Assembly (NCBI GenBank): GCA_048884785.1
Contig: JBHLQM010000044.1
Location: 7,499-29,999, forward strand
Direction of reading: 5' to 3'
DNA length: 22,501 bases
Origin: Candidatus Thorarchaeota archaeon
GTDB lineage: Archaea; Asgardarchaeota; Thorarchaeia; Thorarchaeales; Thorarchaeaceae
Both the position numbers and the translations under genes were made by a program. Shown one piece after another: positions 1 through 16,671 of the stretch (within the stretch, counting starts at the first letter, position 1; each line of letters opens with the position of its first letter). Below the pieces are notes generated by a model. The model had not been told where the DNA came from. It did not search any database and saw nothing but the letters and a program-made list of their open reading frames with translations.

Positions 1-1016
1 TATGATGTGAACTGCATCGATAGACCAACTATCAACGCACCAAAGAAAGTTCCTTCAAAGCGACCATAATGGGCGCCTCCTACAACGACTATGACAAACG
101 CATATATGAGGTACGTCAGACCGTGACCAGAGTTTGCTCCAATCCACGGAACTAGAATAGCACCGGACAATCCCGCAAGGCCTGCACCCAACATGAATAC
201 AATAGTAAACAATCTTCTAATGTTGGTGCCTAATGCTTCAACCATCTCGGAATCTTCAATTCCTGCCTGAATTTGCAGACCAATACGCGTCTTTCTAAAA
301 CCTAAAAACATTAGTCCAGCAACGGTGAATCCCAGAAAGATTAAGAAAATACGGTAGAGATCAAACAAATAACCTCCACCAAAATCTACAACGCCACTAA
401 TGAAGAAGTAGTATATTTGGGAATGAGGGATAATAAAATAGGAGAATTGCGAAGGACCCCAGAAGATTTCGGCCATCTGAGTAATGATGAACATAAAACC
501 AACAGTTAGCAGTATCTGGGCGATAGGATTGCCATAAAGCCGTCGAACTGTAAAGAACTCTATCCCTCCACCAATGAGAGCCATAATTGCTGTCGCTCCA
601 AAGGCACTCACAATAAAGGCTGTAACTGACAGCATAAAATAATTGGTTCCAAAGATGGCGAAGAATGGTAAAGATGGGTTCAAGAAAACAGCCTCAGTTT
701 CGAGATAGATTACGTACCCCAAGAATCCCCCCAACATGAAGAACGCACCGTGTGCGAAATTGATTACATCGCATAGGCCAAAGATCAAGAAGAAACCTGA
801 AACCATCAAGAATAGGAGCATGCTGAATGCAAGACCATTTACCAGCGATTTGCTTGCTCTTACAACAAATCCATCCCACGTATAGAAGTCTATGGCAGCG
901 AAAATCAAAAGACCGCCTATTATTATGAGTACGACCACTGTTACGATTCTCAATATTCTGCGAATCTGTGGGTTTGCCTCCAAATAATCCCGAGGCGAGA
1001 ATTTTTTTCTTTCCAT
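1..1016 (-). CDS. livH: Branched-chain amino acid (HAAT/Liv family) ABC transporter permease, LivH-like; truncated by the left window edge
   Basis: Absent from the ORF track; translated by hand at both ends, which share one frame. ATG at 1016 follows AGGTGA. N-terminal part reads MERKKFSPRDYLEANPQIRRILRIVTVVVLIIIGGLLIFAA...NGLAFSMLLFLMVSGFFLIFGLCDVINFAHGAFFMLGG. Distal part reads AFVIVVVGGAHYGRFEGTFFGALIVGL. INFAHG and FxxVVxGG are LivH hallmarks. Confidence 0.93.
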   Translation of the reverse strand, partial: MERKKFSPRDYLEANPQIRRILRIVTVVVLIIIGGLLIFAAIDFYTWDGFVVRASKSLVNGLAFSMLLFLMVSGFFLIFGLCDVINFAHGAFFMLGGFLGYVIYLETEAVFLNPSLPFFAIFGTNYFMLSVTAFIVSAFGATAIMALIGGGIEFFTVRRLYGNPIAQILLTVGFMFIITQMAEIFWGPSQFSYFIIPHSQIYYFFISGVVDFGGGYLFDLYRIFLIFLGFTVAGLMFLGFRKTRIGLQIQAGIEDSEMVEALGTNIRRLFTIVFMLGAGLAGLSGAILVPWIGANSGHGLTYLIYAFVIVVVGGAHYGRFEGTFFGALIVGLSMQFTS

Positions 1017-1046
1017 CGTCTTTTTCACCTTGATTCAACAACTATG

Positions 1047-1766
1047 CTAAATTGTTACTCCCAAGTATTGCGCTACAAGCTGTTTGTCAGCCACCAACTT
1101 CGCCATGTCCTTGCCTTCATGTACTATCTTCCCGCTATCAAAGATGTAATAGTTATCACCGAGCTTTGACACTGCTCTAAAATTCTGTTCCACTAATAGG
1201 ATAGTTGCAAATTCCTTTAGCCTGTCCAGAGCATTGATGAGATTCCTAGCCAATATAGGACTCAACCCCTCTGTTGGTTCGTCGATAAGCAATAGGTCAT
1301 TATCGTTCACCAATGCACGGGCAACAGCCAGCATTTGCTGCTGACCACCTGACAGCGTCTTGGCCCTCTGTTTAAAGAATCTCCTCATGTCCGGAAATAG
1401 GTCAAAAATAAACTCCAATCGTTCAGGGTAATCGCCCACAAGACCCCCCTTTCGTCTTGACACAATCAGGTTTTGCTCAACTGTCAATGTGCCGAAAATT
1501 CTTCTGGTGTCAGGAACATATCCAATGCCCTTACTGACTATTTTGTGAGTAGGTAGATGCGATATGTCCTCATCTTTGAAAACTATCTTTCCTTCTCTTG
1601 GTGGATAGATTCCCAGTATAGCTTTCATTGTTGTAGTTTTTCCAGAGCCATTTCTACCCAACAGCAGTGTTACTTCTCCTTTGGGCACAACTAGCGAGAT
1701 TCCCTGTAAAATGTAGAAAGACCCTATGTAAACATGGGCATTTTGAATTTCAAGCAAGTTCTTCAT
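1047..1766 (-). CDS. livF: HAAT/Liv ABC transporter ATP-binding subunit, LivF-like
   Basis: Walker A GRNGSGKTT, GIGYVPDTRRIFGTLTVEQNL, signature LSGGQQQMLAVARAL, Walker B LLLIDEPTEGLSP, ILLVEQN. The likely start is ATG 1766 (MKNLL), after GGTGG and overlapping the livG 3' end. Confidence 0.93.
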   Translation of the reverse strand: MKNLLEIQNAHVYIGSFYILQGISLVVPKGEVTLLLGRNGSGKTTTMKAILGIYPPREGKIVFKDEDISHLPTHKIVSKGIGYVPDTRRIFGTLTVEQNLIVSRRKGGLVGDYPERLEFIFDLFPDMRRFFKQRAKTLSGGQQQMLAVARALVNDNDLLLIDEPTEGLSPILARNLINALDRLKEFATILLVEQNFRAVSKLGDNYYIFDSGKIVHEGKDMAKLVADKQLVAQYLGVTI

Positions 1767-2544
1767 CTGTACCACCAAGATAAGCAGCTAACACTAGTTC
1801 ATTTTCTTGAATCTCCTTCGGAGGGCCTTTAGCGATTACGCGTCCTTCTGATAGAACAAAAATCTCCTCACTCAGCCTCATTACTATGTCCATCTTATGT
1901 TCTACTACTACAAGCGTCAATTGGTCGCCATAAGATTCTTTGACCCGTATTATAGCATCAATAACTTCGGGTATCTCTTCTATTGACATCCCTGCAGCTG
2001 GCTCATCAAGTAGAAGGAGTCTTGGCTCTGTAGCAAGAGCCATCGCGATTTCCAGTTTTCTTTGCTCTGCGTGCGGTATCAACGCAGCTGGAATATACAG
2101 TTTGGTTGGGTCAAGTCCCACAACTGACACTATTTCCAGCACTCTTTCATGAAATCTTTCATATGAGCTTGCGTTCGTTAACATTCCCAAGAAATTTACT
2201 CTCGCACCACTACAACCTTGTACAGCCAGTCGAATATTCTCAAAGGTTGTTTGATATGGGAATATGTTCGTAATTTGATATGATCTTGATATCCCCCGTC
2301 TCGTACGTTGGTGCATTGAAAATCTCGTTATATCCTGACCTTCAAAGTATATCTTTCCGGAAGATGGAAGTAGCGCGCCTGTAATCAAATTGAAAAATGT
2401 GGTCTTGCCTGAACCATTCGGGCCAATGATGGCTTTTATAGAACCTCTCTCCACATCAAGTGTCACATCATTAACGGCAACAAGCCCTCCAAAGCTCTTT
2501 GTTAATCCACTTGTGCTGAGGATAAAATCATTCGTAGAGGACAA
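1750..2544 (-). CDS. livG: HAAT/Liv ABC transporter ATP-binding subunit, LivG-like
   Basis: LTKSFGGLVAVNDV, Walker A GPNGSGKTT, GISRSYQ, LLLLDEPAAGM, VEHKM, C-terminal V..AYLG. TTG start preceded by GAGGAAGGAG. Confidence 0.93.
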   Translation of the reverse strand: MSSTNDFILSTSGLTKSFGGLVAVNDVTLDVERGSIKAIIGPNGSGKTTFFNLITGALLPSSGKIYFEGQDITRFSMHQRTRRGISRSYQITNIFPYQTTFENIRLAVQGCSGARVNFLGMLTNASSYERFHERVLEIVSVVGLDPTKLYIPAALIPHAEQRKLEIAMALATEPRLLLLDEPAAGMSIEEIPEVIDAIIRVKESYGDQLTLVVVEHKMDIVMRLSEEIFVLSEGRVIAKGPPKEIQENELVLAAYLGGTDEELA

Positions 2545-2599
2545 TTGGCTCTCCTTCCTCGCAATCTGTCAATAGAAGCATGTACCCAATAGACAGCAT

Positions 2600-2736
2600 T
2601 TAGGCGAATAATATATCTTTTGGATTAAATTTGGTATGTTTCTTGTTTCTAATCAGCAACAAAAGCAAGGAAGCACATCTTCAGTAAGACTAATACTCGA
2701 GAGTACAATGATTTTAATTCAATAGGAGCTTGTGAA
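2600..2736. promoter_or_regulatory. Divergent promoter region between liv and the acyl-CoA operon, with TATA-like boxes and an imperfect 20-bp palindrome
   Basis: AT-rich AATAATATATCTTT (about 2607-2620) and ATTTTAATT (2711-2719). Inverted repeat TTGTTTCT-AATC-AGCAACAA at 2643-2662 with one mismatch. SD-like AGGAG before ATG 2737. Confidence 0.45.
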
Positions 2737-4266
2737 ATGGTTTTGAATGATTGGGCTTGGATTGGAGATTGGACAGGAAGAAGAGCTCTTTTAACACCTA
2801 ATAGTGAGGCTGTAGTTGACAACATTCAGCATAGGAGATACACGTTCAAGGTTATGAATGAACGTGCCAATCAAACTGCTAGATTGCTGCTAGATTCCGG
2901 AATACAGAAAGGTGACAGAGTTGGAGTGTTATCGAAAAACAGATTCGATTTTCTTGATATTCTATTTGCCTGCGGCAAGATAGGGGCAATCTTGACTCCA
3001 TTCAACACTAGGCTCACAGCAAAAGAGATTGAATACCTGATAAAGAAAACAGACCCTTCCATCTTCTTCTATGATCCCGATCTCGGAGCTCAGTTTGAGG
3101 ATACGCGCCCGTTTCTCAAAAAAAGACACATATTCGTAATGGGAGATAAAAAGTCAGAAAATGACAGAAACCTTGACTCGGCGAGGTCCAAGAATTCATC
3201 TGATGAAGTGGAACGTCCCTCAATAACCTTGGATGATCCGTACCTAATTGTTTTCACTGGAGGTACCACAGGACTGCCCAAAGGTGCGATTCTTTCCCAT
3301 GGCTTAGTGTTCTGGAATTCAGTTAATACGATTGTTTCATGGGGACTGCGACCTGATGACATTCAGCCACTTCTCTTTCCTCTCTTTCATACAGGCGGAA
3401 TCAACGTTCTCTTAATCCCCTTCTATCATATCGGGGCCAAGACGATTATCATGGGCGATTTCAATGTGGATGCAACCCTAAAGGTAATTGAGAGGGAGAA
3501 CTGTTCCATTGTCATAGGAGTCCCGACAATGTTCAACATGATGTCGGAGTCACCCATGTTTGAGAATGCGAACTTCGACAGTGTACGAGTCTTCATTAGT
3601 GGCGGAGCTCCTTGCCCCGTGGCCATAATGGAAAAGTACTGGAAACGCGGCAAGATACTGAAAATGGGATATGGACTAACAGAAGTGGGGCCGAATAATT
3701 TCTATCTTCCCGACAGTGAAGTGGAACGAAAACCATCCTCTGTTGGATTCCCTGTGTTTCACTGTGACATGAGAGTGGTTGATGACCACGGAAATGAAAT
3801 GCCAGCAGGCGCGGTTGGCGAGTTAATGCTGCGTGGGCCTCACACATTCTCAGGGTACTGGGATGAACCTGAAGAAACATCCAAAACCATCGAACATGAT
3901 GGTTGGGTTCACACCGGCGACCTTGCCATGAGAGATGCTGAAGGATTCTATTTCATAACCGGACGAAAGAAGGATATGTTCATCTCAGGAGGTGAGAATG
4001 TCTATCCCACTGAGATTGAGGAGCTTCTCTACAAACATCCCTCTATTTTGGAGGCCGCCGTTATAGGAGTCCCTCATGAGAAATGGGGCGAGGTGGGCAA
4101 GGCATTCATTGTGTTGAAACCGGGCAAGAGTCTTATTGAAAAGGAGATTCTTGAGTATCTTGATGGAAAGCTTGCAAAGTATAAGATACCAAAGCATTTC
4201 GAATTCAGAGATGAACTGCCAAAGAGCGCAGCTGGAAAGATACTGAAGCGGGAATTAGTTGGATAA
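2737..4266 (+). CDS. Acyl-CoA synthetase / AMP-dependent ligase (FadD-like, ANL superfamily)
   Basis: P-loop FTGGTTGLPKG, PLFHTGG, GYGLTE, HTGD, GRKKDMFISGGENVYPTEIE, terminal PKSAAGKILK. Confidence 0.95.
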   Translation: MVLNDWAWIGDWTGRRALLTPNSEAVVDNIQHRRYTFKVMNERANQTARLLLDSGIQKGDRVGVLSKNRFDFLDILFACGKIGAILTPFNTRLTAKEIEYLIKKTDPSIFFYDPDLGAQFEDTRPFLKKRHIFVMGDKKSENDRNLDSARSKNSSDEVERPSITLDDPYLIVFTGGTTGLPKGAILSHGLVFWNSVNTIVSWGLRPDDIQPLLFPLFHTGGINVLLIPFYHIGAKTIIMGDFNVDATLKVIERENCSIVIGVPTMFNMMSESPMFENANFDSVRVFISGGAPCPVAIMEKYWKRGKILKMGYGLTEVGPNNFYLPDSEVERKPSSVGFPVFHCDMRVVDDHGNEMPAGAVGELMLRGPHTFSGYWDEPEETSKTIEHDGWVHTGDLAMRDAEGFYFITGRKKDMFISGGENVYPTEIEELLYKHPSILEAAVIGVPHEKWGEVGKAFIVLKPGKSLIEKEILEYLDGKLAKYKIPKHFEFRDELPKSAAGKILKRELVG

Positions 4267-4281
4267 TCAGGAGGTATAATC

Positions 4282-5307
4282 ATGACTAGGAAGAGTATCG
4301 GCATTGAGGCAATTGGCACATATATTCCGAAGGAGCGACATACTGCTGAATATATCTCAAGCAAGTCTGGGACTCCTGCTGAAGTCATCAAGAGTAAGAT
4401 GGGAATGAAGAGTAAGGCAGTCCCAGGGAAGGATGATCATACAGTTGCAATGGGAGTGAAGGCTGCCAAGATTGCCATTGAAAGGGCTGGAATCGATCCG
4501 GCAAAGGACATTGATTTGGTCATCTGGGCAGGTGAGGTCTATGCCGAGCATCCTATGCAGACATATGCAATAAAATTCCAGGGCGATATTGGCGCGACAA
4601 ACGCCTGGGCGTTTGATGTTAATCAGAGATGTGGGACGATTGTCGTGGCAATGATGCTTGCCAAGTCGCTAATGCTGACAGAGGGCTATAGACGTGTTAT
4701 TATTGGGAGTGGCTACCGCAATTGCGATCTAATAGACTATGAGAATATTCGAACTCGATTCATGCATGACCTAGCTGCAAGTGGTGTTGCTATGATCCTT
4801 CGTTCCGATTTTGGCAAAAATATAGTTCTTGAGGGCAGCGTGATCTCTGATGGTCAGTTCTCTGAAGATGTCTATGTTCCAGCAGGCGGGACGGTAATGC
4901 CAATCTCTTGCGAGGCAATTGAGAAGAAGCTGACATACCTTGATGTTACAGATCCAGAAGGTCTCAAAGAAAGATTAGATAGACTGTCAATGCAGAACTT
5001 CATCAAGGTTGTAGATGAATCCCTCAAAAAGAGCGGCTACACCAGAGAGGATATTGACTACCTGGGTCTTCTTCGAATGAAGAGAAGCGCATTTGAATAT
5101 GTAGCAACAGAACTTGGCGTTGACCCGTATGAGCAAGCAACATATTTTGAGGAATGGGGACATATGGGGCAGAATGACGCCGTTGTTTCACTGGAAGAAG
5201 GCTTGAAGAGCGGGAAGATAAAAGATGGTGATGTTGTCGTTCTAACGGCAGCCGGCATTGGATGGTCGTGGAATGCCATGACAATCAAATGGGGAGCACA
5301 GGAGTGA
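4282..5307 (+). CDS. 3-oxoacyl-[ACP/CoA] synthase III (FabH/KAS III-like, thiolase fold) family protein with an atypical active site
   Basis: IGTYIP at the N-terminus, AFDVNQRCG with nucleophile Cys117, WGHMGQND, C-terminal GDVVVLTAAGIGWSW (FabH-like GxGxxW). Strong SD GGAGGT. Confidence 0.88.
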   Translation: MTRKSIGIEAIGTYIPKERHTAEYISSKSGTPAEVIKSKMGMKSKAVPGKDDHTVAMGVKAAKIAIERAGIDPAKDIDLVIWAGEVYAEHPMQTYAIKFQGDIGATNAWAFDVNQRCGTIVVAMMLAKSLMLTEGYRRVIIGSGYRNCDLIDYENIRTRFMHDLAASGVAMILRSDFGKNIVLEGSVISDGQFSEDVYVPAGGTVMPISCEAIEKKLTYLDVTDPEGLKERLDRLSMQNFIKVVDESLKKSGYTREDIDYLGLLRMKRSAFEYVATELGVDPYEQATYFEEWGHMGQNDAVVSLEEGLKSGKIKDGDVVVLTAAGIGWSWNAMTIKWGAQE

Positions 5308-5312
5308 TTGCT

Positions 5313-5729
5313 ATGAAGGTTACTAAATATTCAGACATCAAATTAGGTGACTTTGCAGAAGTAGAGCATTTCATAACTGATGAAGATATTCAGACATTTG
5401 GCAGGTTAAGCGGCGATTATAATCCGCTGCATTTTGATGAAGAATGGGCAAAAACAACGATGTTTGGTAGTCGAATTGCCCATGGTCTTCTTACAGCATC
5501 TTTCATCAGTACAGCTATTGGAATGCATCTTCCAGGAGCTGGAACAATATACATAGGCCAAAGCATGCGCTTCCTAGGACCTGTAAGGATTGGTGATACG
5601 GTGATTGCTCGTGTAGAAGTAGTCAAGCTGGATGATGAAAAAGAGCGCGTGACTCTTAGAACAACTTGTACAAACCAGCGTGGCAAGCTAGTACTAGATG
5701 GAGAAGCAGAAGTGACCCTCATGAGATAG
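5313..5729 (+). CDS. MaoC-family (R)-specific enoyl-CoA hydratase/dehydratase (PhaJ-like, hot-dog fold)
   Basis: Hydratase motif SGDYNPLHFD with the Asp/His dyad, IAHGLL, PGAGTIY, F.GPV.IGD. The start is more likely ATG 5313 (after GGAGTGA) than 5262. Confidence 0.92.
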   Translation: MKVTKYSDIKLGDFAEVEHFITDEDIQTFGRLSGDYNPLHFDEEWAKTTMFGSRIAHGLLTASFISTAIGMHLPGAGTIYIGQSMRFLGPVRIGDTVIARVEVVKLDDEKERVTLRTTCTNQRGKLVLDGEAEVTLMR

Positions 5730-5773: not shown

Positions 5774-7414
5774 CTAGTCCTTCAGAATCCGTGGCAGTGC
5801 AAATCGCAACACGATCGCCTCTCCAAGGGATATAGCTAGCTGAGTGAGAATTGCCAAGACATGATTTCCTGTGGTCAATAGCATATAGCTGTACCCTACA
5901 AGAGGTGAAAAGCCAACAATACCGCTGATCAAGAGCGCGAAAAACGATATTGCCTGATCACCGACGAGATTGACCGCAGTTACCCGGCCGCCTCCACGAA
6001 CTCGATATATTGCCCCACCTACAGCAGCCCCAATTGAGTAGGTACAGGGTAATTGGAAAAGAGGAATGAGGAGGAGATATGGCGATATTAGTGAGTTGAC
6101 CAAGAGAATCACAAACACTACTATCATTGAGAAAACATATGATACTGAAAAGATTGCTATTTTCCCGTTTAGAACTGTGAAGGTCTTCAATGGCAATCCT
6201 TCGTAAACCGAAGCACCTTGAGTATCTAAACCTAGTAGTCCTATCATTGCTATTCCTGCAAAGACTGTTACATAGCCAACAACCATCAATACTGCCATAC
6301 TACGAATCCCGGAAACTCCGCCTATTGAGAGAGAAGGAAGAATTGCAAATATCATTAAGAATGGAAAAACAAGCAGCATGATGGAACCTAAACTTCGAGT
6401 GGCAATTCGTAGGTCCTTTCGAACTAGCGCTCGAAGCTCCGATGAGATGTGTATATCAACCGGCGATACAGATGATGATGCAGACACTGAAACTCCGCCC
6501 AATGCCAGAGATTTCAGAGTTTTTCCACTAGTTTGATAACTTCTGATACCAAGATAGAGATAAAGAATGGAAGCCGCTGCTGAAGCAATAATAGTAGGTA
6601 GTGGAAACACAAAACCATAGGCAAGCGTTGCAGCCACGAATCCAAATGAGAATGGAAATAGCAGAGCTAGAATACTAATTACTCCTGAACCTGCGATTGT
6701 GGAGAAAGTGACAATCACATTTACAATGGCAGGGATAAATCCTATCGCACCATATGAGACCACGAAGCCCAATGTCATCCCGATTCCAGCCCCAATTCTT
6801 ATGATTGATGAGAACGCAGATTCACTTCCGGCTTGGGATTTTGAATAGAACCACCCTGATACACGAATAAGAGCTCCAAGTGCCAAGATTGATGTCGCGG
6901 TCAATGAGGCAAATACAAAGATGGCAGTCAGGAGTCCAAAGATGATGGCAATCAGAATTGGAAAAATCACTAGAAGCAATGCAATAGGAGCAATGAATAT
7001 TCTGGCAAAAGCGAGTAGCATTAGTCCCTCTAAATCAGATTTGCTAAATGGAAGCGTAGATGGTAGAACCATCGCGCCAGCGCTGAAGAAGCCAGTTGAA
7101 GATATTAGATTCATGAAGAATATCAGCACAAAGCCTGCTCCGAAAAATATGCTAATAGAGACAGCGAACTGGAATTCTATTCCTCCGGTCATTTCAAAAA
7201 AGAAGAATGATACCACCATCATGATGCCAACCATAAGTACAACGAACCCTGTTAGCAAGGAGTTTATTGCTGAGCCTCTCTTAATCTGCGAAATGATGCG
7301 TTCGGGTTTTTCCTTTATTCTAGAGAGATTAGAAGGATTGGCGTCAAGATAACCAGTGAACCGAATCTCTTGAGCGATGGTACCAGCAATTCTCCAACGC
7401 TCTCTGAAACTCAA
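5774..7414 (-). CDS. ABC exporter permease (long ABC-2-like polytopic membrane protein)
   Basis: Roughly a dozen hydrophobic segments in two halves, with an ALVRKDLR amphipathic motif starting the second half. TTG start overlaps the ATPase stop (TTGA). Confidence 0.8.
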   Translation of the reverse strand: MSFRERWRIAGTIAQEIRFTGYLDANPSNLSRIKEKPERIISQIKRGSAINSLLTGFVVLMVGIMMVVSFFFFEMTGGIEFQFAVSISIFFGAGFVLIFFMNLISSTGFFSAGAMVLPSTLPFSKSDLEGLMLLAFARIFIAPIALLLVIFPILIAIIFGLLTAIFVFASLTATSILALGALIRVSGWFYSKSQAGSESAFSSIIRIGAGIGMTLGFVVSYGAIGFIPAIVNVIVTFSTIAGSGVISILALLFPFSFGFVAATLAYGFVFPLPTIIASAAASILYLYLGIRSYQTSGKTLKSLALGGVSVSASSSVSPVDIHISSELRALVRKDLRIATRSLGSIMLLVFPFLMIFAILPSLSIGGVSGIRSMAVLMVVGYVTVFAGIAMIGLLGLDTQGASVYEGLPLKTFTVLNGKIAIFSVSYVFSMIVVFVILLVNSLISPYLLLIPLFQLPCTYSIGAAVGGAIYRVRGGGRVTAVNLVGDQAISFFALLISGIVGFSPLVGYSYMLLTTGNHVLAILTQLAISLGEAIVLRFALPRILKD

Positions 7415-8190
7415 TTCTCTAGAGCCCCCCTCAGAGCATCAACGCCCTTCTTTACATCATCCTCTTCTCCGGTTAGTTTGAGAAAGACATTCTCGAGTGT
7501 AGCTCCTTCCGATTCAGATTGAGTACGAAGCTCGTCTAGTGTACCCTCTGCAACAAGAACACCATCATCAATGATTCCTACACGATCACAGAGACCCTCT
7601 GCCATCTCCATAATGTGCGTGCTGAAGAGTACTGAGCCACCTTTGTCGGTATGAATCTGAATGACATCCTTCATGATTCGGGTTGTTCTTACATCGAGGC
7701 CTGAGAATGGCTCATCAAGAATTAGGAGATCTGGGGCATGCAGCATAGCGATGAGTAGCATAGCCTTCTGTTTATTTCCCTGCGAGAGTGTAATAATTGG
7801 CTTATCATAATGATTCGTGAAATCAAGTGCACGAGCCATTTCTGCAACACGGTTTTTTGCATGCCAATGGTCTAGACCTCGAATAGAGCCTACAAACTCA
7901 AGGATTTCTCGGGATGTTAGCGAATTGTAGAGAAGTTGCTCTTCTGGGACATATCCAACTCTTTTCTTGACCTCAATAGGGTCAGAGGTTGAGCTAATGC
8001 CGAAAACATTAGCAGTTCCAGAATCTGGATCTAGAAGACCCATCAAGATCTTCAATGTTGTTGTCTTTCCTGCACCATTAGGCCCCAGAAGCCCATAGAC
8101 CTCACCCTCATGTACATCGAACGTTAGTCTATTGACAGCTGTTATGTGCCCAAAAGTCTTCACAAGGTCTCTAATCTCTATTGGATTCAA
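7411..8190 (-). CDS. ABC exporter ATP-binding protein (ABC-2/DrrA-like)
   Basis: GPNGAGKTT, VGYVPE, LSQGNKQK, LILDEPFSGLD, STH, C-terminal TLENVFLKLT. TTG start with SD AGGAGGAG. Confidence 0.93.
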   Translation of the reverse strand: MNPIEIRDLVKTFGHITAVNRLTFDVHEGEVYGLLGPNGAGKTTTLKILMGLLDPDSGTANVFGISSTSDPIEVKKRVGYVPEEQLLYNSLTSREILEFVGSIRGLDHWHAKNRVAEMARALDFTNHYDKPIITLSQGNKQKAMLLIAMLHAPDLLILDEPFSGLDVRTTRIMKDVIQIHTDKGGSVLFSTHIMEMAEGLCDRVGIIDDGVLVAEGTLDELRTQSESEGATLENVFLKLTGEEDDVKKGVDALRGALEN

Positions 8191-8430: not shown

Positions 8431-9591
8431 TTATTCAACGATATCAAATTCGGTCCCAACACTTTCTGCACCATCACCGGAAGTTCTTATTTTCCTCATC
8501 CACACGTATAGAAGGACAATTGCTGCTAATCCTCCAATGAGTATAATCGGTTCCAAGCCTATGATGGGCTCATCGCTTTGCTTGATTTCCAGAATGACGA
8601 ACCCATTCTCTTCATCTGTCATATAGATATAATTACCAACCAATTCAATCCGATTGGGCTTGCCACCGTCAGAGTAGCGAGCTACTTCAGTAGGTTGAGA
8701 TGGATTCTGAATATCTAGCAGCAGTAGTCCTAATTCCACATCACAAAGAAAGGCAAGATTGCGTACCATGTCAATGTGAACAGAAAAAGCGTGCAAACTC
8801 TCATCGAATTCGGATACAACTCTGATATTTGATATGTCGCTAATGTTCAGTACCTTAAAGCTCTTTTCCCAATAACTTAGAAAAGCCAAGTCTCCAACGA
8901 TTTCTAGATCGCCCAATTCAGCATCACTAGTCGACTCTCCCACATACTGTGCTACTTGTGTTGGATTAGTACGGTTGGTAATATCAAAAACCGTAAATCC
9001 TGCGTAACTTGTGGTTGCAAAAGCAAGATTCTCCATGACTTCGACATCTGTTGCATCTCCAGCAGTAGATATACTTCCTAGCAATTCAGGTGCTGTGAGG
9101 TTCGTTACATTGACACTTGTAAGAACGCAGCCAATCCCGCTGAATCCATTAGCAACAAAAGCTACATCTTCTACTACTGCTACATCCCATGCGTAGTTTC
9201 CCGTGAATTGGCTCAGAACAACGGGATTGGATTCATCCTCAAAGTTGATTATCTTGAGCCCACCGTTGCCATCACCCACGAACATTGTATCATCCCGCAT
9301 GAAAAGCTGATGTGCGTAGCCGCCCGATGAAGAAGGAACGCTTGCTAGCTCAGTTGGCTCATAAGGATCACTTGTATCAAAGACCTTTACTCCAGAGTAT
9401 CCACATGAAACATAAGTGATATCCTTGTTTGAATCGACCCACACATCATAGGCATCACCAGTTTCAACCTGTCCCACTTTTGTCAGCACAATTTGGTTTG
9501 CGCTTGCACGAAGCACGAAGCAGCTTAGAATGGAGTTCAGAATAGTGATTAGAACTAGGTAGCAAATGACTCTAGTATATCTCCCCTTCAC
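8431..9591 (-). CDS. Secreted, C-terminally membrane-anchored LVIVD-repeat beta-propeller protein
   Basis: N-terminal signal-like segment, seven repeats of about 40 aa (e.g. GVKVFDTSDPYEP, GLKIINFEDESNP, GFTVFDITNRTNP, GLLLLDIQNPSQP), then a TM helix IILIGGLAAIVLLYVWM followed by RKIR. GTG start. Confidence 0.88.
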   Translation of the reverse strand: MKGRYTRVICYLVLITILNSILSCFVLRASANQIVLTKVGQVETGDAYDVWVDSNKDITYVSCGYSGVKVFDTSDPYEPTELASVPSSSGGYAHQLFMRDDTMFVGDGNGGLKIINFEDESNPVVLSQFTGNYAWDVAVVEDVAFVANGFSGIGCVLTSVNVTNLTAPELLGSISTAGDATDVEVMENLAFATTSYAGFTVFDITNRTNPTQVAQYVGESTSDAELGDLEIVGDLAFLSYWEKSFKVLNISDISNIRVVSEFDESLHAFSVHIDMVRNLAFLCDVELGLLLLDIQNPSQPTEVARYSDGGKPNRIELVGNYIYMTDEENGFVILEIKQSDEPIIGLEPIILIGGLAAIVLLYVWMRKIRTSGDGAESVGTEFDIVE

Positions 9592-9869: not shown

Positions 9870-11219
9870 TTAACCAGATGTTATCTTTGCAGACTCGACC
9901 AATATTGATGGAGAGATCATGTTTTCTCGGCTTTCAATATCTGATCCAATTAGAATTATTCTCTTCAGCAAGTCGGTCATTGTAATTCCGAATAGTGTAC
10001 TTTTCAGAGGATGTATGATTTCACCCTTCGAGAGGAAAAAGCCCTCCATAATCATGGCGCTCAGCTCTCCTGTGATGGGATTAGGCCGATCTAGGGTAAG
10101 AGTGCAGAGAACACCCTTGCTGACTTCTGAAATCATTTCATCAAGAGATGAAGAGCCTGGCGAGATTACCAGATTCGAAATGTCAATGCTCGGAGTAACT
10201 CTATAGGAACCGCGTGCAGCATTACCAGTATCATCCACTTCATCTTTGGCACTACTGTATGAATCGTGAAGATAGCTCTTTAGAATCCCTGAGCCTACTA
10301 GTTGTGTATTCTGGGATGGAAAGCCTTCAGCATCAAAAGGCCGTGATCCAAGAGCATAGGCTTGAACTCCTGTATCCATAATAGATAGTTCAGAGGTGGC
10401 AATCTCCGAGCCCAGCGAATCCACCATGTAAGATTTCCCTTCTTGAATTGTCCTTGCATTAAGGGCCTTGGTAAATCCTTCACGAAGTACTGCCAACAAC
10501 GCTCGAGGACTCAGGATTAGAGGCAAATCACCTCCATCAATCGCTTTCGCACCCCGCAATTCAAGGGCGTACCGAGCAGACTGTGAACCCACTTTCTCAG
10601 GATCAATAGCCGCAAGTCTACGTGAACCTTGAATTTCATCACTTGAGCATTGCTCCCCGCCTGATCCAATAGCAGAATATACCTCTAGTCCTGCTTTCGT
10701 TTCACAGCTTGTTGCATTGATTCCATGTGAATTCACGATAACTCTTGTCTTGGATTCAGCAGTAAACCCCCCCACAATTAGATTGCGCTCCTTTCCTGAA
10801 ACCTCCTGCGAGGCTTGAACTGCACGTTTCATTATTTCGACAGCTTGCTCATATCCGATTTGATCTATTTGTCTGTCAAAGATACCACTGATTTTGGGGT
10901 ATGATGAACGGACGGATGCGAACGATTTGAAGTCCGGATCAGGAACTGATGCACGTGACGCGGCAATCGCGTCCCGAATTGCTTGATCGAGGTCCTTCTC
11001 TAGGATTGAAGTGACATACGAAATCCCTAGCTGATTCCCAAGAGCAACCCGTATCCCGCATCCTGCATCCTGTTTCTCAGCAGCTAGGCGAATTAATCCC
11101 CTCTCAATCTTTACCTCGATTATTTTTGTCGATTCCAAGTATGCTTCAACCTGATTTGCACCTAGGGCTTCAGCGCAATCGACTACATGCGTACCTAGTT
11201 CGATGAGTTGGTGGTTCAT
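9870..11219 (-). CDS. tldE: TldE/PmbA, non-catalytic subunit of the TldDE metalloprotease
   Basis: GCGIRV, IVNSHG, PFDAEGFP, GIL.SYLHD.YS, TGNAAR, ISNL.I.PG, NPITGELS; no HExxxH. ATG 11219 lies 1 nt after the tldD stop. Confidence 0.9.
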   Translation of the reverse strand: MNHQLIELGTHVVDCAEALGANQVEAYLESTKIIEVKIERGLIRLAAEKQDAGCGIRVALGNQLGISYVTSILEKDLDQAIRDAIAASRASVPDPDFKSFASVRSSYPKISGIFDRQIDQIGYEQAVEIMKRAVQASQEVSGKERNLIVGGFTAESKTRVIVNSHGINATSCETKAGLEVYSAIGSGGEQCSSDEIQGSRRLAAIDPEKVGSQSARYALELRGAKAIDGGDLPLILSPRALLAVLREGFTKALNARTIQEGKSYMVDSLGSEIATSELSIMDTGVQAYALGSRPFDAEGFPSQNTQLVGSGILKSYLHDSYSSAKDEVDDTGNAARGSYRVTPSIDISNLVISPGSSSLDEMISEVSKGVLCTLTLDRPNPITGELSAMIMEGFFLSKGEIIHPLKSTLFGITMTDLLKRIILIGSDIESRENMISPSILVESAKITSG

Positions 11220-11220
11220 A

Positions 11221-12612
11221 TTATACGCCTCCCACTGGAACTTGGTGCAATCTTGCATGTGGCCCTCCAGACATCACCCATGCCGCTTGTCCTTGAGTTC
11301 CACAGCTCCCAGCGTCATAGAAGAAGTCCTTGCACACTGCATCCACCTTTGGCAATATTTCGAGTATCTGGCCTGCAATAGAGGCATCACGAACTACATC
11401 TGTTCTTTCACCATTCTCAATCAGTTGGCCATTTACTGATTTGAACATGAACTGGCCCTTTGTAGAATCCGTGTAGCCGTAATCAACATTGCACATGATT
11501 ATACCTTCTTTGGTATCTTCAATCAATTCCTCAAGATCCCAATCGCCAGGCTGCATGAACGTGTTGCTCATTCGAGGAATCGGTGGATGCATGAAGGACA
11601 TCGCTCTTGCGGAACCATTTGCCACCATCTTGAGCCGTGATGCTGTGTCTAGGCTATGCAAGAATTCTGTGAGTATACCGTCTTTCACCATTTGCTTCCT
11701 TGTGGTGCGAGTTCCTTCCCAGTCGTATACATAGGATCCGAGATGTCCTTTTAGGGTCGGATCATCAAATAGATTGATGTGCTCTGGTCCGATACTTGTT
11801 CCCATTCTACCCTGCAGTACTGATGACCCACCGGTCAGCGAATCAGCCTCGCACGCATGACCAAATGCTTCATGGATCAAAGCTCCATTTAGTGGTGGAT
11901 CGACAATAACATCGAAAATCCCACCCTTCACTGCTTTTGATGCCAAGAGTGATAATGCCACTCGCGATGGTTCTTCGACCAGCCATTGCATTCTCTCATC
12001 TGTGATGTCACCTAGACCTCCAGTAAACCCAATGGAGACATGTGCCTGTTGTGTGCTTTTTTCATCTTTGGCTGTGCAGAAAGGAATGAACACAATCTTG
12101 GCACTCTCTTCCATGACACTTGTTCCCAAGGAATTCGCAGCATACATCTCAGTGTAGACATCGCGATAGACTATTCGTGAGTTCTTTACCCTCTTGTCTG
12201 CCTGAAGCATATCGTTGCTTAGTTGCTTTGCTATTCCTATCTTGTAGTCGACAGATGTTTTATTGATAGGAGTCTTGGCCTTGTATTCTATATTATCTTG
12301 AAAAGCTGGAGCTTCAATCTCGAACCGTTCTTCAACCCACTTGCTTGCAGTCACTGCTAGCTTCGCTATTGATTGTGAAGCAATTCTAATCCCATTCTGG
12401 GACAAATCAGTTGTGTAGCCAAATGACCAAGACCCATCCACAAATGCGCGGATACCTGCCCCCTTCTCCGTAGCCAAGACTGTGTTTCTGGTGACTCCAT
12501 TCACAATGTCGAGGTTTGTCTTCCGAGTGTATTCGATTCTAATATCCACAAAGGAGGCTCCCGCACTCAATCCAGCCTCTATTGCAGTTTCACCAAGGTC
12601 TTCCAAGTTCAT
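11221..12612 (-). CDS. tldD: TldD catalytic metalloprotease subunit
   Basis: GAGIRAF, Zn motif HEAFGHACEAD, DDPT, YDWEG, NGSARA, PIPRMSNT, Cys ligand in SCGTQGQ, GGPH. ATGA overlap with the upstream regulator stop. Confidence 0.93.
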   Translation of the reverse strand: MNLEDLGETAIEAGLSAGASFVDIRIEYTRKTNLDIVNGVTRNTVLATEKGAGIRAFVDGSWSFGYTTDLSQNGIRIASQSIAKLAVTASKWVEERFEIEAPAFQDNIEYKAKTPINKTSVDYKIGIAKQLSNDMLQADKRVKNSRIVYRDVYTEMYAANSLGTSVMEESAKIVFIPFCTAKDEKSTQQAHVSIGFTGGLGDITDERMQWLVEEPSRVALSLLASKAVKGGIFDVIVDPPLNGALIHEAFGHACEADSLTGGSSVLQGRMGTSIGPEHINLFDDPTLKGHLGSYVYDWEGTRTTRKQMVKDGILTEFLHSLDTASRLKMVANGSARAMSFMHPPIPRMSNTFMQPGDWDLEELIEDTKEGIIMCNVDYGYTDSTKGQFMFKSVNGQLIENGERTDVVRDASIAGQILEILPKVDAVCKDFFYDAGSCGTQGQAAWVMSGGPHARLHQVPVGGV

Positions 12613-13355
12613 ACCTCCGACTGCGTTCCAAAGAGCAGCTTGCTAATCTTCTGCCAAATCTGCACATACTCGCCATTCCCAATTGCATATGCATCGAGAA
12701 GCCAGTGATACATGTTTACAACTTCGGGATCTGTTACATCAGCTCGCACAAGCCCAGCAATCATCCCCCTCCAAGAGTCCTTGAGTAATTCACTTGCAGT
12801 CAGGAGCCTTACAACCTCTTTCCTATCGCGTGCATTCAATTTGATGTTGAAGATACTCAATGTATCGTCCATTCGTTTACCTTCTCTATCAAGCAAAAAG
12901 TCTTCATCAAAATGTGGTGTAGCCATTGTAACGACAACGTATTTGGATGTCCGACGGTAGTAATCGATAGCTCTCTTGCCCACCCAGAGCGTGCCATACT
13001 TGTGGACGAATCCCAACTCCTCCAGGCGACGAATGTGATGATTTACCTGATTACGAGTGACTTCCTGAAAGCCTACGTGCTTTCTTGATAGTTCCACAAT
13101 CTCGCTGACGGATAAAGCGTATCGAACGGTAGGAGTTTCCTTAATGGTTCGAATACCAGTCTGTTGATCAATTGATGATTCCACCACGAAATCAGCGATA
13201 CCTCGTCCCAAGATCTGATGGATAGCTAATCTAGGTTCTTGTTCAAATTCAGTGGCCAATCGAATGTCGGTTATGAAGATCGCGCCAGTTTGAGGTCGTT
13301 GCCCGGCCTCAGTCAACTCAATCTGAGCAATTGATTGTGGAATTTTGGCAGTCAC
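12609..13355 (-). CDS. ArsR-like winged-helix transcriptional regulator with an inserted segment and a helical C-terminal domain
   Basis: EPRLAIHQIL...ALSVSEIVELS...VTRNQVNHHIRRLEELGFV...wing...YYRRT. GTG 13355 is preceded by AGGTGA and is preferred over TTG 13388, which lies inside the palindrome. Confidence 0.8.
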   Translation of the reverse strand: MTAKIPQSIAQIELTEAGQRPQTGAIFITDIRLATEFEQEPRLAIHQILGRGIADFVVESSIDQQTGIRTIKETPTVRYALSVSEIVELSRKHVGFQEVTRNQVNHHIRRLEELGFVHKYGTLWVGKRAIDYYRRTSKYVVVTMATPHFDEDFLLDREGKRMDDTLSIFNIKLNARDRKEVVRLLTASELLKDSWRGMIAGLVRADVTDPEVVNMYHWLLDAYAIGNGEYVQIWQKISKLLFGTQSEV

Positions 13356-13372
13356 AGAATCACCTACGATTT

Positions 13373-13427
13373 TTGTTTGTTCTAACAAACAATTCTTAGT
13401 ATATTGTTTGCTTTGAGAAGCAAATAA
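13373..13427 (-). promoter_or_regulatory. Tandem palindromic operator candidates flanking a TATA-like box upstream of wHTH-tldD-tldE
   Basis: Perfect TTGTTTGTT-CT-AACAAACAA (13373-13392). Near-perfect TTGTTTGCTT-TGAG-AAGCAAATAA (13404-13427). Minus-strand AATATACTAAG lies between them. Confidence 0.65.
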
Positions 13428-16666: not shown

Positions 16667-16671
16667 ATACT

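What the first reader, a model, noticed from the sequence alone, without database searches (positions are those of the whole stretch)
1..5729. ACP-free uptake-activate-condense-dehydrate cluster in an apparently archaeal genome
Seen: a Liv-type importer shares a 192-bp divergent region with a tight operon of acyl-CoA synthetase, KAS III-like enzyme and MaoC (R)-hydratase. No ACP, reductase or acyl-CoA dehydrogenase lies in the operon. Established: HAAT/Liv systems beside CoA ligases often import carboxylic acids rather than amino acids; MaoC enzymes act on (R)-3-hydroxyacyl-CoA; most archaea lack canonical ACP-based fatty acid synthesis. Inference: this is a CoA-based module that scavenges an organic or fatty acid and extends or cleaves it by a non-canonical route. 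From memory, similar clusters occur in Thermus/Bacillus-type bacteria with unresolved function, so horizontal transfer is possible.
Basis: partly seen in the sequence, partly recalled or inferred. Interest (0 to 1): 0.7.

Follow-up and report, generated by a model that had tools for sequence, protein, structure and literature searches.

The report
Asgard acid-uptake cassette with odd FabH-like enzymes
A Thorarchaeota genome carries one arm of a conserved 11-gene cassette, shared with several bacterial phyla, that imports a small organic acid or ester and handles it as CoA thioesters using two uncharacterised FabH-like enzymes; it probably salvages nutrients and does not build fatty acids.

Summary
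LivG/LivF/permease genes lie 192 bp from, and diverge from, an acyl-CoA ligase, a KAS III-like gene and a MaoC gene. The genome (Thorarchaeota-like, 91% complete) has no ACP, PPTase or FabD.

The window shows only half of the unit. Left of it, the importer operon continues with a fused LivHM permease, a hydrolase, a second KAS III-like gene, a second ligase, a second hydrolase and the binding protein. This gene set recurs in Thorarchaeota, recurs rearranged in another Asgard family, and recurs in Thermoflexus, Rectinema, other Chloroflexota and Proteobacteria. Some bacterial copies add TetR and, in Thermoflexus, a 3-hydroxybutyrate dehydrogenase.

Neither KAS III-like protein has the FabH Cys-His-Asn triad. 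KAS1 reads Cys117/Arg265/His294/Asp299 and KAS2 reads Cys116/Thr257/Tyr287. MaoC is PhaJ-like.

Best reading: an accessory import, de-esterify and CoA-activate module, possibly for (R)-3-hydroxyalkanoate units. The FabH-like enzymes would act as non-decarboxylating acyl-Cys enzymes. ACP-free chain elongation is a weaker rival.

Earlier agents of this scan reached similar readings for the same cassette on other DNA. I found no literature on the family.

The parts
1..1028 (-). N-terminal (LivH-like) 342 residues of a fused LivH/LivM permease of 812 aa. The gene starts at 1028 and runs off the left edge of the window (whole gene L041:6088-8526, minus strand).
   Evidence: PF02653 BPD_transp_2 at 9.5e-28 in the window part. 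The whole ORF has two BPD_transp_2 stretches and UrtB- plus UrtC/LivM-like halves.
1047..1778 (-). LivF/UrtE-like ABC ATPase
   Evidence: PF00005 at 4e-33. Best NCBIfam hits are UrtE (207 bits) and LivF (172 bits), both below their cut-offs.
1750..2544 (-). LivG/UrtD-like ABC ATPase; first gene of the leftward operon
   Evidence: PF00005 plus PF12399 BCA_ABC_TP_C. Best NCBIfam hits are UrtD (204 bits) and LivG (191 bits), both below their cut-offs.
2545..2736 (.). 192-bp divergent control region
   Evidence: Read directly. Aligning 17 Thorarchaeota spacers shows two conserved boxes and a Shine-Dalgarno-like AGGAG at 2724-2728. Their promoter roles are inferred.
2604..2624 (.). Conserved box GCGAATAATATATCTTTTGGA. 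It is AT-rich and TATA-like, about 60-80 nt from the LivG start. Candidate promoter and/or regulator site for the importer operon.
   Evidence: Most positions are at least 80% conserved across the 17 Thorarchaeota spacers, while the flanks vary. The function is inferred.
2680..2697 (.). Conserved box TTCAGTAAGACTAATACT, about 40-55 nt upstream of the ligase ATG. Candidate TATA/promoter of the ligase-KAS1-MaoC operon.
   Evidence: Conserved in 15 of the 17 aligned spacers; the other two are gapped across it. The function is inferred.
2737..4266 (+). LIG1, an ANL-family acyl-CoA synthetase (509 aa)
   Evidence: PF00501 at 1.7e-83 plus PF13193. It scores 459 bits against NF004837 (cut-off 476) and 478 bits against NF005307 (cut-off 748). 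Best solved relative is 8wev/8weu, 'feruloyl-CoA synthetase / fatty-acyl-CoA synthase', at 354 bits; next is FadD13 at 263 bits. The C-terminal GKILKR Lys is present.
4282..5307 (+). KAS1, a FabH-fold protein of NCBIfam family NF005308 (PRK06840), 341 aa. Cys117 is codon 4630-4632, Arg265 is 5074-5076, His294 is 5161-5163 and Asp299 is 5176-5178.
   Evidence: NF005308 at 422.7 bits, above the 315 cut-off. AF2 model has pLDDT 95.9 and its top folds are FabH. In the alignment to B. subtilis FabH, Cys is kept, His becomes Arg and Asn becomes His. In the family alignment G293 and D299 are invariant and H294 is nearly invariant.
5262..5729 (+). PhaJ-like MaoC (R)-specific enoyl-CoA hydratase. The start is either 5262 or Met18 at 5313.
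   Evidence: PF01575 at 1.1e-24. The motif SGDYNPLH carries Asp52 and His57. Best solved relatives are PhaJ-type hydratases 5cpg (118 bits) and 1iq6 (96 bits).

Best explanation
The finding is the right-hand arm of an 11-gene accessory cassette. The cassette takes up a small carboxylic acid or its (oligo)ester and processes it as CoA thioesters for catabolism or salvage.

Shown:
- A Liv/HAAT-type ABC importer is present (binding protein, fused LivHM permease, LivG, LivF).
- It is genetically locked to two cytoplasmic serine hydrolases, two acyl-CoA ligases, a PhaJ-like (R)-hydratase and two FabH-fold proteins.
- The cassette is conserved across Asgard families and bacterial phyla. Some bacterial copies sit beside a TetR-family gene.
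- Neither FabH-fold protein has the Cys-His-Asn triad, and the genome has no ACP system.

Inferred:
- The hydrolases free acid units from esters and the ligases make acyl-CoAs.
- MaoC converts an (R)-3-hydroxyacyl-CoA to the enoyl-CoA. The product then enters the acyl-CoA dehydrogenase and thiolase genes encoded elsewhere in the genome. This would explain why the cassette needs no dehydrogenase of its own.
- KAS1 (Cys117/His294/Asp299, Arg265) and KAS2 (Cys116 only) act as acyl-Cys enzymes. They would carry out acyl transfer, thiolysis or a non-decarboxylative C-C step. They would not carry out malonyl-dependent condensation.

The most likely substrate class is (R)-3-hydroxyalkanoates such as 3-hydroxybutyrate and its oligomers. 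I put that at about 0.3 within the overall 0.55.
For: Cassette extent:
- The left flank adds a hydrolase, KAS2, LIG2, a second hydrolase and the binding protein.
- The same gene set is found in four other Thorarchaeota genomes. It is complete but reordered in a second Asgard family.
- About 20 further Thorarchaeota loci keep LivF-LivG facing LIG1-KAS1-MaoC.

Bacterial versions:
- Thermoflexus: TetR-ABH-LIG-SDR-ABH-LIG-KAS1-MaoC-SBP-LivG-LivF-perm-perm.
- Rectinema, Desulfobacterales, Proteobacteria and other Chloroflexota keep KAS1 with the Liv importer, mostly with a ligase and a hydrolase.
- A haloarchaeon has CoA-transferase A/B, ligase, KAS1.

Not FabH:
- KAS1 has His replaced by Arg265 and Asn replaced by His294. 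KAS2 has Thr257 and Tyr287 at these sites, conserved in 8 orthologues.
- No ACP, PPTase or FabD in the genome.

Acyl-transfer-like site:
- His294 and Asp299 are five residues apart, as in ChlB3 (Cys113-His296-Asp301) and CerJ (PMC9573744).
- The end-anchored profile offsets agree with this equivalence.

3-hydroxyalkanoate lead:
- MaoC is nearest to PhaJ.
- The Thermoflexus SDR is a 3-hydroxybutyrate dehydrogenase: TIGR01963 at 335.8 bits, above the 307 cut-off.
- The Rectinema SDR is FabG/PhaB-like and sits near a butyryl-CoA:acetate CoA-transferase-like gene.
- The roughly 355-aa cassette hydrolases have 'intracellular scl-PHA depolymerase' as their first or second hit, at 78-104 bits, below the cut-off.

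Downstream enzymes exist elsewhere in the genome: 4 acyl-CoA dehydrogenases and 6 thiolase-like genes.
Against: - No enzyme of the cassette has been assayed, and I found no paper on the family.
- The substrate is not identified. LIG1's best solved relative is labelled feruloyl-CoA synthetase. The hydrolases score higher against 3-oxoadipate enol-lactonase (134-137 bits) than against PHA depolymerase (about 70 bits), and all are below cut-off.
- This genome has no true 3-hydroxybutyrate dehydrogenase (best 223 bits against a 307 cut-off), no PF10503 depolymerase and no class III PHA synthase.
- The wider KAS1 family keeps His at position 265 (a Cys/Ser-His-His-Asp site). That resembles DpsC, which does condense.
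- Overall KAS1 is closer in sequence to FabH (about 200 bits) than to DpsC or CerJ (about 100 bits).
- The role of KAS2 is unexplained.
- No regulator gene is seen in the Thorarchaeota cassette.
Confidence: 0.55

Rival explanations
1. ACP-independent chain extension. The ligase primes an imported acid as acyl-CoA. KAS1 condenses it with malonyl- or acetyl-CoA to a 3-ketoacyl-CoA. A reductase encoded elsewhere makes the (R)-3-hydroxyacyl-CoA. MaoC dehydrates it. A hydrolase acts as a thioesterase and releases the product.
For: - The KAS1 family consensus is Cys/Ser117-His265-His294-Asp299. This is the DpsC layout, and DpsC condenses.
- A FabG/PhaB-like SDR lies next to KAS1 in Rectinema.
- MaoC uses the (R) stereochemistry of synthesis.
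- The genome has no ACP, so any condensation would be CoA-based.
Against: - The Thorarchaeota clade has replaced His265 by Arg. This is one derived event (clade support 0.998).
- KAS2 lacks both the His and the Asn equivalents.
- There is no ketoreductase or enoyl reductase in the archaeal cassette.
- Constant linkage to an importer and hydrolases, with TetR and a catabolic 3-hydroxybutyrate dehydrogenase in some bacterial copies, points to breakdown.
- The distribution is patchy: 56 of 201 Asgard genomes are over the family cut-off. That fits an accessory trait better than lipid synthesis.
Confidence: 0.2
2. Hydroxycinnamate or other aromatic-acid ester salvage. Esterases free ferulate/coumarate-type acids. 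The ligase makes the enoyl-CoA. MaoC hydrates the side chain. A FabH-like enzyme helps to shorten it.
For: - LIG1's best solved relative is deposited as feruloyl-CoA synthetase, at 354 bits against 263 bits for the next hit.
- ABH1's best solved relative is a soil-metagenome carboxylesterase, Est1/Ade1.
- A Desulfobacterales relative has ligase, crotonase and Liv importer next to KAS1.
- An unsaturated acid would explain a hydratase without an acyl-CoA dehydrogenase.
Against: - The same PDB sequence is also deposited as 'fatty-acyl-CoA synthase'.
- The binding protein matches the benzoate-derivative binding proteins only weakly, at 24-31 bits.
- MaoC is nearest to short-chain PhaJ enzymes.
- The cluster has no aldehyde dehydrogenase or ring-processing genes.
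Confidence: 0.1
3. Ole-like or other secondary-metabolite pathway. A KAS-like condensing enzyme, an AMP-ligase-like beta-lactone synthetase and an alpha/beta-hydrolase would make an olefin, beta-lactone or ester product.
For: The enzyme classes (FabH-fold, ANL ligase, alpha/beta-hydrolase, plus an SDR in Thermoflexus) are the same classes as OleA/C/B/D.
Against: - OleA structures match KAS1 only marginally (E about 7e-4) and match KAS2 only over its N-terminus.
- The hydrolases score best against PcaD-type lactonases and esterases. Haloalkane dehalogenase (OleB-like) is at most 64 bits.
- The Thermoflexus SDR is a 3-hydroxybutyrate dehydrogenase.
- An importer and TetR are atypical for such pathways.
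- There is no OleD-type gene in the archaeal cassette.
Confidence: 0.05

Closest known systems
FabH (KAS III, beta-ketoacyl-ACP synthase III)
   Same: Same fold and domain pair (PF08545 and PF08541). FabH is the best sequence and structure match: TM about 0.83-0.88 and about 200 bits to the family profile. The nucleophilic Cys sits at the same place.
   Different: The catalytic His and Asn are replaced: Arg265/His294 in KAS1 and Thr257/Tyr287 in KAS2. The genome has no ACP, PPTase or FabD. The genes sit with an importer, ligases and hydrolases, not with fab genes.
KAS III-like acyltransferases CerJ and ChlB3, and the priming enzyme DpsC
   Same: A Cys (or Ser in some bacterial members) nucleophile, plus a His at the FabH-Asn site followed five residues later by an invariant Asp (GHxGxxD). 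ChlB3 uses Cys113-His296-Asp301. The bacterial members' extra His265 mirrors the second His reported for DpsC.
   Different: Overall similarity is lower than to FabH (about 100 against 200 bits). Those enzymes work with ACPs or sugar acceptors in antibiotic pathways. Here there is no ACP and the context looks catabolic. The residue equivalence rests on motif spacing and profile offsets, not on a superposition.
Liv/HAAT-type carboxylate importers next to CoA ligases (for example the Rhodopseudomonas palustris aromatic-acid and dicarboxylate systems; from my own knowledge)
   Same: A Peripla_BP_6 binding protein, BPD_transp_2 permeases and a LivG/LivF ATPase pair are encoded beside acyl-CoA ligases. 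The binding protein's best solved relatives are 3nnd/3n0x, ABC binding proteins deposited without a named ligand.
   Different: The permease halves are fused into one 812-aa protein. The ligand is unknown. FabH-like genes are not part of the described systems.
3-hydroxybutyrate / PHB-fragment catabolism (oligomer hydrolase, BdhA, CoA activation, PhaJ)
   Same: A PhaJ-like hydratase and serine hydrolases are present. The bacterial cassettes carry a bona fide 3-hydroxybutyrate dehydrogenase or CoA-transferases.
   Different: The Thorarchaeota genome has no BdhA above cut-off and no known depolymerase. The hydrolases are not members of a PHA depolymerase family. FabH-like enzymes have no place in the classical route.

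Membership tests
FabH / KAS III | Thiolase-type fold with ACP_syn_III and ACP_syn_III_C domains | tested here: met
   Pfam hits. AF2 model with pLDDT 95.9 whose top folds are FabH structures.
FabH / KAS III | Cys-His-Asn catalytic triad | tested here: not met
   KAS1 has Cys117, Arg265 and His294. KAS2 has Cys116, Thr257 and Tyr287. Both patterns are conserved in orthologues.
FabH / KAS III | Malonyl-ACP partner system (ACP, PPTase, FabD) in the genome | tested here: not met
   PF00550, PF01648 and PF00698 have no match in a genome that is 91.3% complete. The controls ring in 10-11 of 14 genomes.
NCBIfam NF005308 (PRK06840, named '3-oxoacyl-ACP synthase') | Score above the curated cut-off of 315 bits | tested here: met
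   KAS1 scores 422.7 bits. KAS2 scores 193 bits, so it is not a member.
CerJ/ChlB3/DpsC-type KAS III-like acyl-transfer enzymes | Cys/Ser nucleophile with a His-Asp pair (His at the FabH-Asn site, Asp five residues later) | tested here: inconclusive
   The motif GH294MGQND299 is present, and G293 and D299 are invariant in 40 sequences. The offsets to ChlB3, CerJ and DpsC chains fit. The triads are taken from PMC9573744. No residue-level superposition was possible.
HAAT (Liv-type) ABC importer | BPD_transp_2 permease(s), LivG (with BCA_ABC_TP_C) and LivF ATPases, and a Peripla_BP_6 binding protein | tested here: met
   Ligand specificity was not tested.
(R)-specific enoyl-CoA hydratase (PhaJ/MaoC) | MaoC hot-dog domain with the catalytic Asp...His motif | tested here: met
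   PF01575 hit, motif SGDYNPLH, and alignment to 5cpg.
OleABCD olefin / beta-lactone pathway | OleA-type thiolase, OleB dehalogenase-like hydrolase, OleC and an OleD reductase together | tested here: not met
   OleA matches are weak. The hydrolases are PcaD/esterase-like. There is no reductase in the archaeal cassette.
Classical PHB / 3-hydroxybutyrate degradation route | 3-hydroxybutyrate dehydrogenase and a recognised depolymerase or oligomer hydrolase | tested here: not met
   In this genome the best TIGR01963 hit is 223 bits against a 307 cut-off, and PF10503 finds nothing. The feature is met only in the Thermoflexus cassette, at 335.8 bits.

The most novel reading that the evidence does not exclude
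KAS1 (Cys-Arg-His-Asp) and KAS2 (Cys-Thr-Tyr) represent new reaction types in the thiolase/FabH superfamily that need no carrier protein. One possibility is CoA-dependent thiolysis of oxo-ester bonds, an energy-saving depolymerisation of hydroxyalkanoate oligomers into acyl-CoAs. Another is a FabH-fold substitute for beta-ketothiolase. Asgard archaea and haloarchaea would have acquired the family by inter-domain transfer.
Probability: 0.2. Interest if true: 0.8.

Novelty: new variant of a known kind. Interest (0 to 1): 0.55.

Why it matters
Genome pipelines annotate these genes in Asgard archaea as '3-oxoacyl-ACP synthase'. That label invites the claim that the closest archaeal relatives of eukaryotes make bacterial-type fatty acids.

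The evidence here argues against that. The enzymes lack the condensation triad, there is no ACP system, the trait is patchy, and its partners are an importer, esterases and ligases.

The cassette also marks two widespread FabH-fold subfamilies with no assigned reaction, and it exists in a cultured bacterium (Thermoflexus hugenholtzii). The chemistry is therefore directly testable. It could reveal how sediment archaea scavenge hydroxy-acid or ester carbon.

Tried and rejected
- HMG-CoA-synthase-like Glu-Cys-His site. Glu85 sits 32 residues before Cys117, but it is not conserved in the family (consensus Ser). Dropped.
- BioZ/BioH-type pimelate (biotin) route. There is no BioB in the genome. Dropped.
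- Ole pathway. Rejected; see the rival explanations.
- 'Frameshifted' binding protein. The two ORFs are separated by a run of N in the contig. The gene is intact (498 aa) in a relative.
- The search for related loci with family alignments failed because no conserved stretch was found. I used the search for homologous proteins and the look-up of encoding contigs instead.
- treekit.build was killed by the sandbox. I replaced it with MAFFT and FastTree.
- Protein comparison does not take PDB ids, so there is no residue-level alignment to DpsC, CerJ or ChlB3.
- Foldseek against the PDB could not separate FabH-like from CerJ-like.
- Literature searches for the family, for PDB codes 8wev/6eb3/3n0x and for Asgard FabH gave nothing useful.
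- Complex prediction was not used. A KAS1-KAS2 heterodimer would pass by likeness to FabH dimers, and KAS1 often occurs without KAS2.

Full report
**Observation.**
- On the minus strand lie a permease fragment (3-1028, BPD_transp_2), a LivF-like ATPase (1047-1778) and a LivG-like ATPase (1750-2544, with the BCA_ABC_TP_C tail).
- On the plus strand lie an AMP-binding ligase (2737-4266), a KAS III-like protein (4282-5307) and a MaoC protein (5262-5729).
- The divergent spacer is 2545-2736, which is 192 bp.
- The window is G000:C44:7499-29999 of a 3.6-Mb, 158-contig genome that is 91.3% complete.
- The closest relatives of the KAS gene are Thorarchaeota MAGs at 79-89% identity, then Hermodarchaeota at about 56%.
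- The genome gives no match to ACP (PF00550), 4'-phosphopantetheinyl transferase (PF01648) or FabD (PF00698). The same searches ring in 10-11 of 14 control genomes.

**The unit is larger than the finding.** I read the 7.5 kb to the left (L041). The permease turns out to be a fused LivH/LivM protein of 812 aa. On the same strand it is followed by:
- an alpha/beta hydrolase (ABH1, 275 aa);
- a second KAS III-like gene (KAS2, 336 aa);
- a second ligase (LIG2, 516 aa, 41% identical to LIG1);
- a second hydrolase (ABH2, 265 aa);
- a Peripla_BP_6 binding protein.

The binding-protein gene looks split only because a run of N interrupts it. It is an intact 498-aa ORF in a relative. Both hydrolases carry GxSxG motifs and no signal peptide. 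There is no reductase, acyl-CoA dehydrogenase, thiolase or regulator anywhere in the 11 genes.

**Conservation.**
- About 20 Thorarchaeota loci keep LivF-LivG facing LIG1-KAS1-MaoC.
- Four further Thorarchaeota genomes carry all 11 genes in the same order.
- Two genomes of another Asgard family carry the complete set in different orders and on one strand. A gene set that stays together through rearrangement argues for one functional unit.
- The trait is patchy. KAS1-type genes exceed the NF005308 cut-off in 56 of 201 sampled Asgard genomes.
- Seventeen Thorarchaeota spacers share two conserved boxes, at 2604-2624 and 2680-2697, plus an AGGAG before the ligase ATG. I read these as the two divergent promoters, possibly with a regulator site. 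That reading is inferred.

**Bacterial counterparts.** A search of 1.8 billion cluster representatives found relatives at 37-44% identity. They come from Rectinema, Desulfobacterales, Anaerolineae, Thermoflexus and Proteobacteria. A profile search added many Chloroflexota, Desulfotomaculales and two haloarchaea. Their contexts repeat the theme:
- Thermoflexus: TetR-ABH-LIG-SDR-ABH-LIG-KAS1-MaoC-SBP-LivG-LivF-perm-perm.
- Rectinema: CoA-transferase, KAS2-like and TetR facing KAS1-SDR-SBP-perm-perm-ABC-ABC-ABH-ABH.
- Proteobacteria and Chloroflexota: KAS1, ligase, (ABH), SBP and the Liv transporter.
- A haloarchaeon: CoA-transferase A/B, ligase, KAS1.

The constant core is KAS1 with a ligase, usually joined by a hydrolase and a Liv-type importer.

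In a FastTree rooted on KAS2, the Asgard KAS1 sequences form one clade (support 0.93) nested among bacterial sequences. The deeper nodes are weak. The haloarchaeal copies sit inside a Chloroflexota/Firmicutes clade (support 0.99). Inter-domain transfer is therefore likely, but its direction for Asgard is not resolved.

**The FabH-like proteins.** KAS1 is a member of NCBIfam NF005308 (422.7 bits, cut-off 315). Its high-confidence model has the FabH fold.
- Aligned to B. subtilis FabH, Cys117 is kept. The His of HQAN is Arg265 (LLRMKRS). The Asn of GNTS is His294 (GHMGQND).
- In a 40-sequence family alignment, G293 and D299 are invariant and H294 is nearly so.
- The nucleophile is Cys, or Ser in some bacteria including Thermoflexus.
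- Position 265 is His in bacteria and other Asgard lineages but Arg in the Thorarchaeota clade. That clade has 0.998 support, so the change is one derived event.
- The His-x4-Asp spacing and the numbering match the Cys113-His296-Asp301 triad of the acyltransferase ChlB3, which is shared with CerJ. The extra His265 of the bacterial members matches the second His described for DpsC (PMC9573744). Profile-to-chain offsets agree.
- Overall, though, the family is nearer to FabH (about 200 bits) than to DpsC or CerJ (about 100 bits).

KAS2 keeps Cys116 but has Thr257 and Tyr287 at the His and Asn sites. This holds in all eight orthologues examined, including Rectinema. Neither protein can be assumed to decarboxylate malonyl units. 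Both probably still form acyl-Cys intermediates.

**Other parts.**
- MaoC carries the hydratase Asp/His motif and is closest to PhaJ-type (R)-specific enoyl-CoA hydratases (5cpg at 118 bits, 1iq6 at 96 bits).
- LIG1 and LIG2 are ordinary ANL ligases near the NF004837 'long-chain-fatty-acid--CoA ligase' subfamily (459 and 446 bits, cut-off 476). LIG1's best solved relative is deposited as a feruloyl-CoA synthetase / fatty-acyl-CoA synthase.
- ABH1 is most like a soil-metagenome esterase, and then 3-oxoadipate enol-lactonase.
- The binding protein resembles 3nnd/3n0x, ABC binding proteins deposited without a named ligand, far more than any Leu/Ile/Val-binding protein.

**What it most likely does.**
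- The constant importer, the esterase-type hydrolases, the ligases and (in some bacteria) TetR-family genes point to an inducible uptake-and-activation module, not a biosynthetic one.
- An (R)-specific hydratase with no acyl-CoA dehydrogenase is explained most simply if the CoA ester made by the ligase is already a 3-hydroxyacyl-CoA or an enoyl-CoA.
- Several bacterial cassettes point to 3-hydroxybutyrate chemistry. The Thermoflexus SDR is a 3-hydroxybutyrate dehydrogenase above both curated cut-offs. The Rectinema SDR is FabG/PhaB-like and sits by a butyryl-CoA:acetate CoA-transferase-like gene. The haloarchaeal pair follows 3-oxoacid-type CoA-transferase subunits. The long cassette hydrolases have a PHA-depolymerase model as their first or second hit, though below cut-off.
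- The Thorarchaeota genome encodes four acyl-CoA dehydrogenases and six thiolase-like proteins elsewhere, which could take the products further.
- Against the specific substrate: this genome has no true 3-hydroxybutyrate dehydrogenase, no PHB depolymerase and no PHA synthase. The ligase and hydrolase similarities fit other acids equally well.

I put 0.55 on the general salvage reading and about 0.3 on the 3-hydroxyalkanoate version. I put 0.2 on ACP-free elongation, 0.1 on aromatic-acid ester salvage and 0.05 on an Ole-like pathway.

**Prior notes and limits.**
- Earlier agents of this scan described the same cassette on other genomes and reached similar verdicts. One proposed PHB-oligomer catabolism for a Lutibacter operon. 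I used that as a lead and tested part of it.
- I found no published work on the family.
- No residue-level superposition on CerJ, ChlB3 or DpsC could be made.

Noticed in passing
window 5774-8190 (minus strand): A 546-aa polytopic membrane protein (weak 12TM_1 hit, below the cut-off) and an ABC ATPase lie directly after MaoC. Homologues of this pair (about 27% and 55% identity) lie about 3 kb from the KAS1 homologue in eight Hermodarchaeota-type loci. They are absent from the other Thorarchaeota loci. The link to the cassette may be real or may be coincidence.
   Followed up: partly
L041:1151-1220 (contig C44, left of the window): A run of N interrupts the binding-protein gene, so it appears as two ORFs. 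It is an assembly gap or a withheld stretch, not a frameshift.
   Followed up: yes
window 9870-12612 (minus strand): A tandem TldD/PmbA metallopeptidase pair (462 and 463 aa) is preceded by a 259-aa ORF (12609-13388) with no Pfam match.
   Followed up: no
window 8431-9591 (minus strand): A 386-aa LVIVD-repeat protein lies between the ABC pair and the TldD/PmbA genes.
   Followed up: no
window 15173-19497 (plus strand): An MFS_2 sugar-type transporter overlaps a 944-aa GH38 alpha-mannosidase by 4 bp. This looks like a small mannoside-uptake operon.
   Followed up: no
NCBIfam models NF005307 (PRK06839), NF005308 (PRK06840), NF005309 (PRK06841): The best or near-best models for the ligase, KAS1 and the Thermoflexus SDR carry consecutive PRK numbers. 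This suggests they were seeded from three adjacent genes of one bacterial genome. The label 'o-succinylbenzoate--CoA ligase' on PRK06839 may be a misnomer for this cassette's ligase.
   Followed up: no
L054 (Halobacteriales archaeon Cl-PHB) and P0415 (Salinibaculum salinum): Haloarchaea also carry the ligase-KAS1 pair, here after CoA-transferase A/B genes. In the tree their copies nest within a Chloroflexota/Firmicutes clade, which suggests an acquisition separate from the Asgard one.
   Followed up: partly
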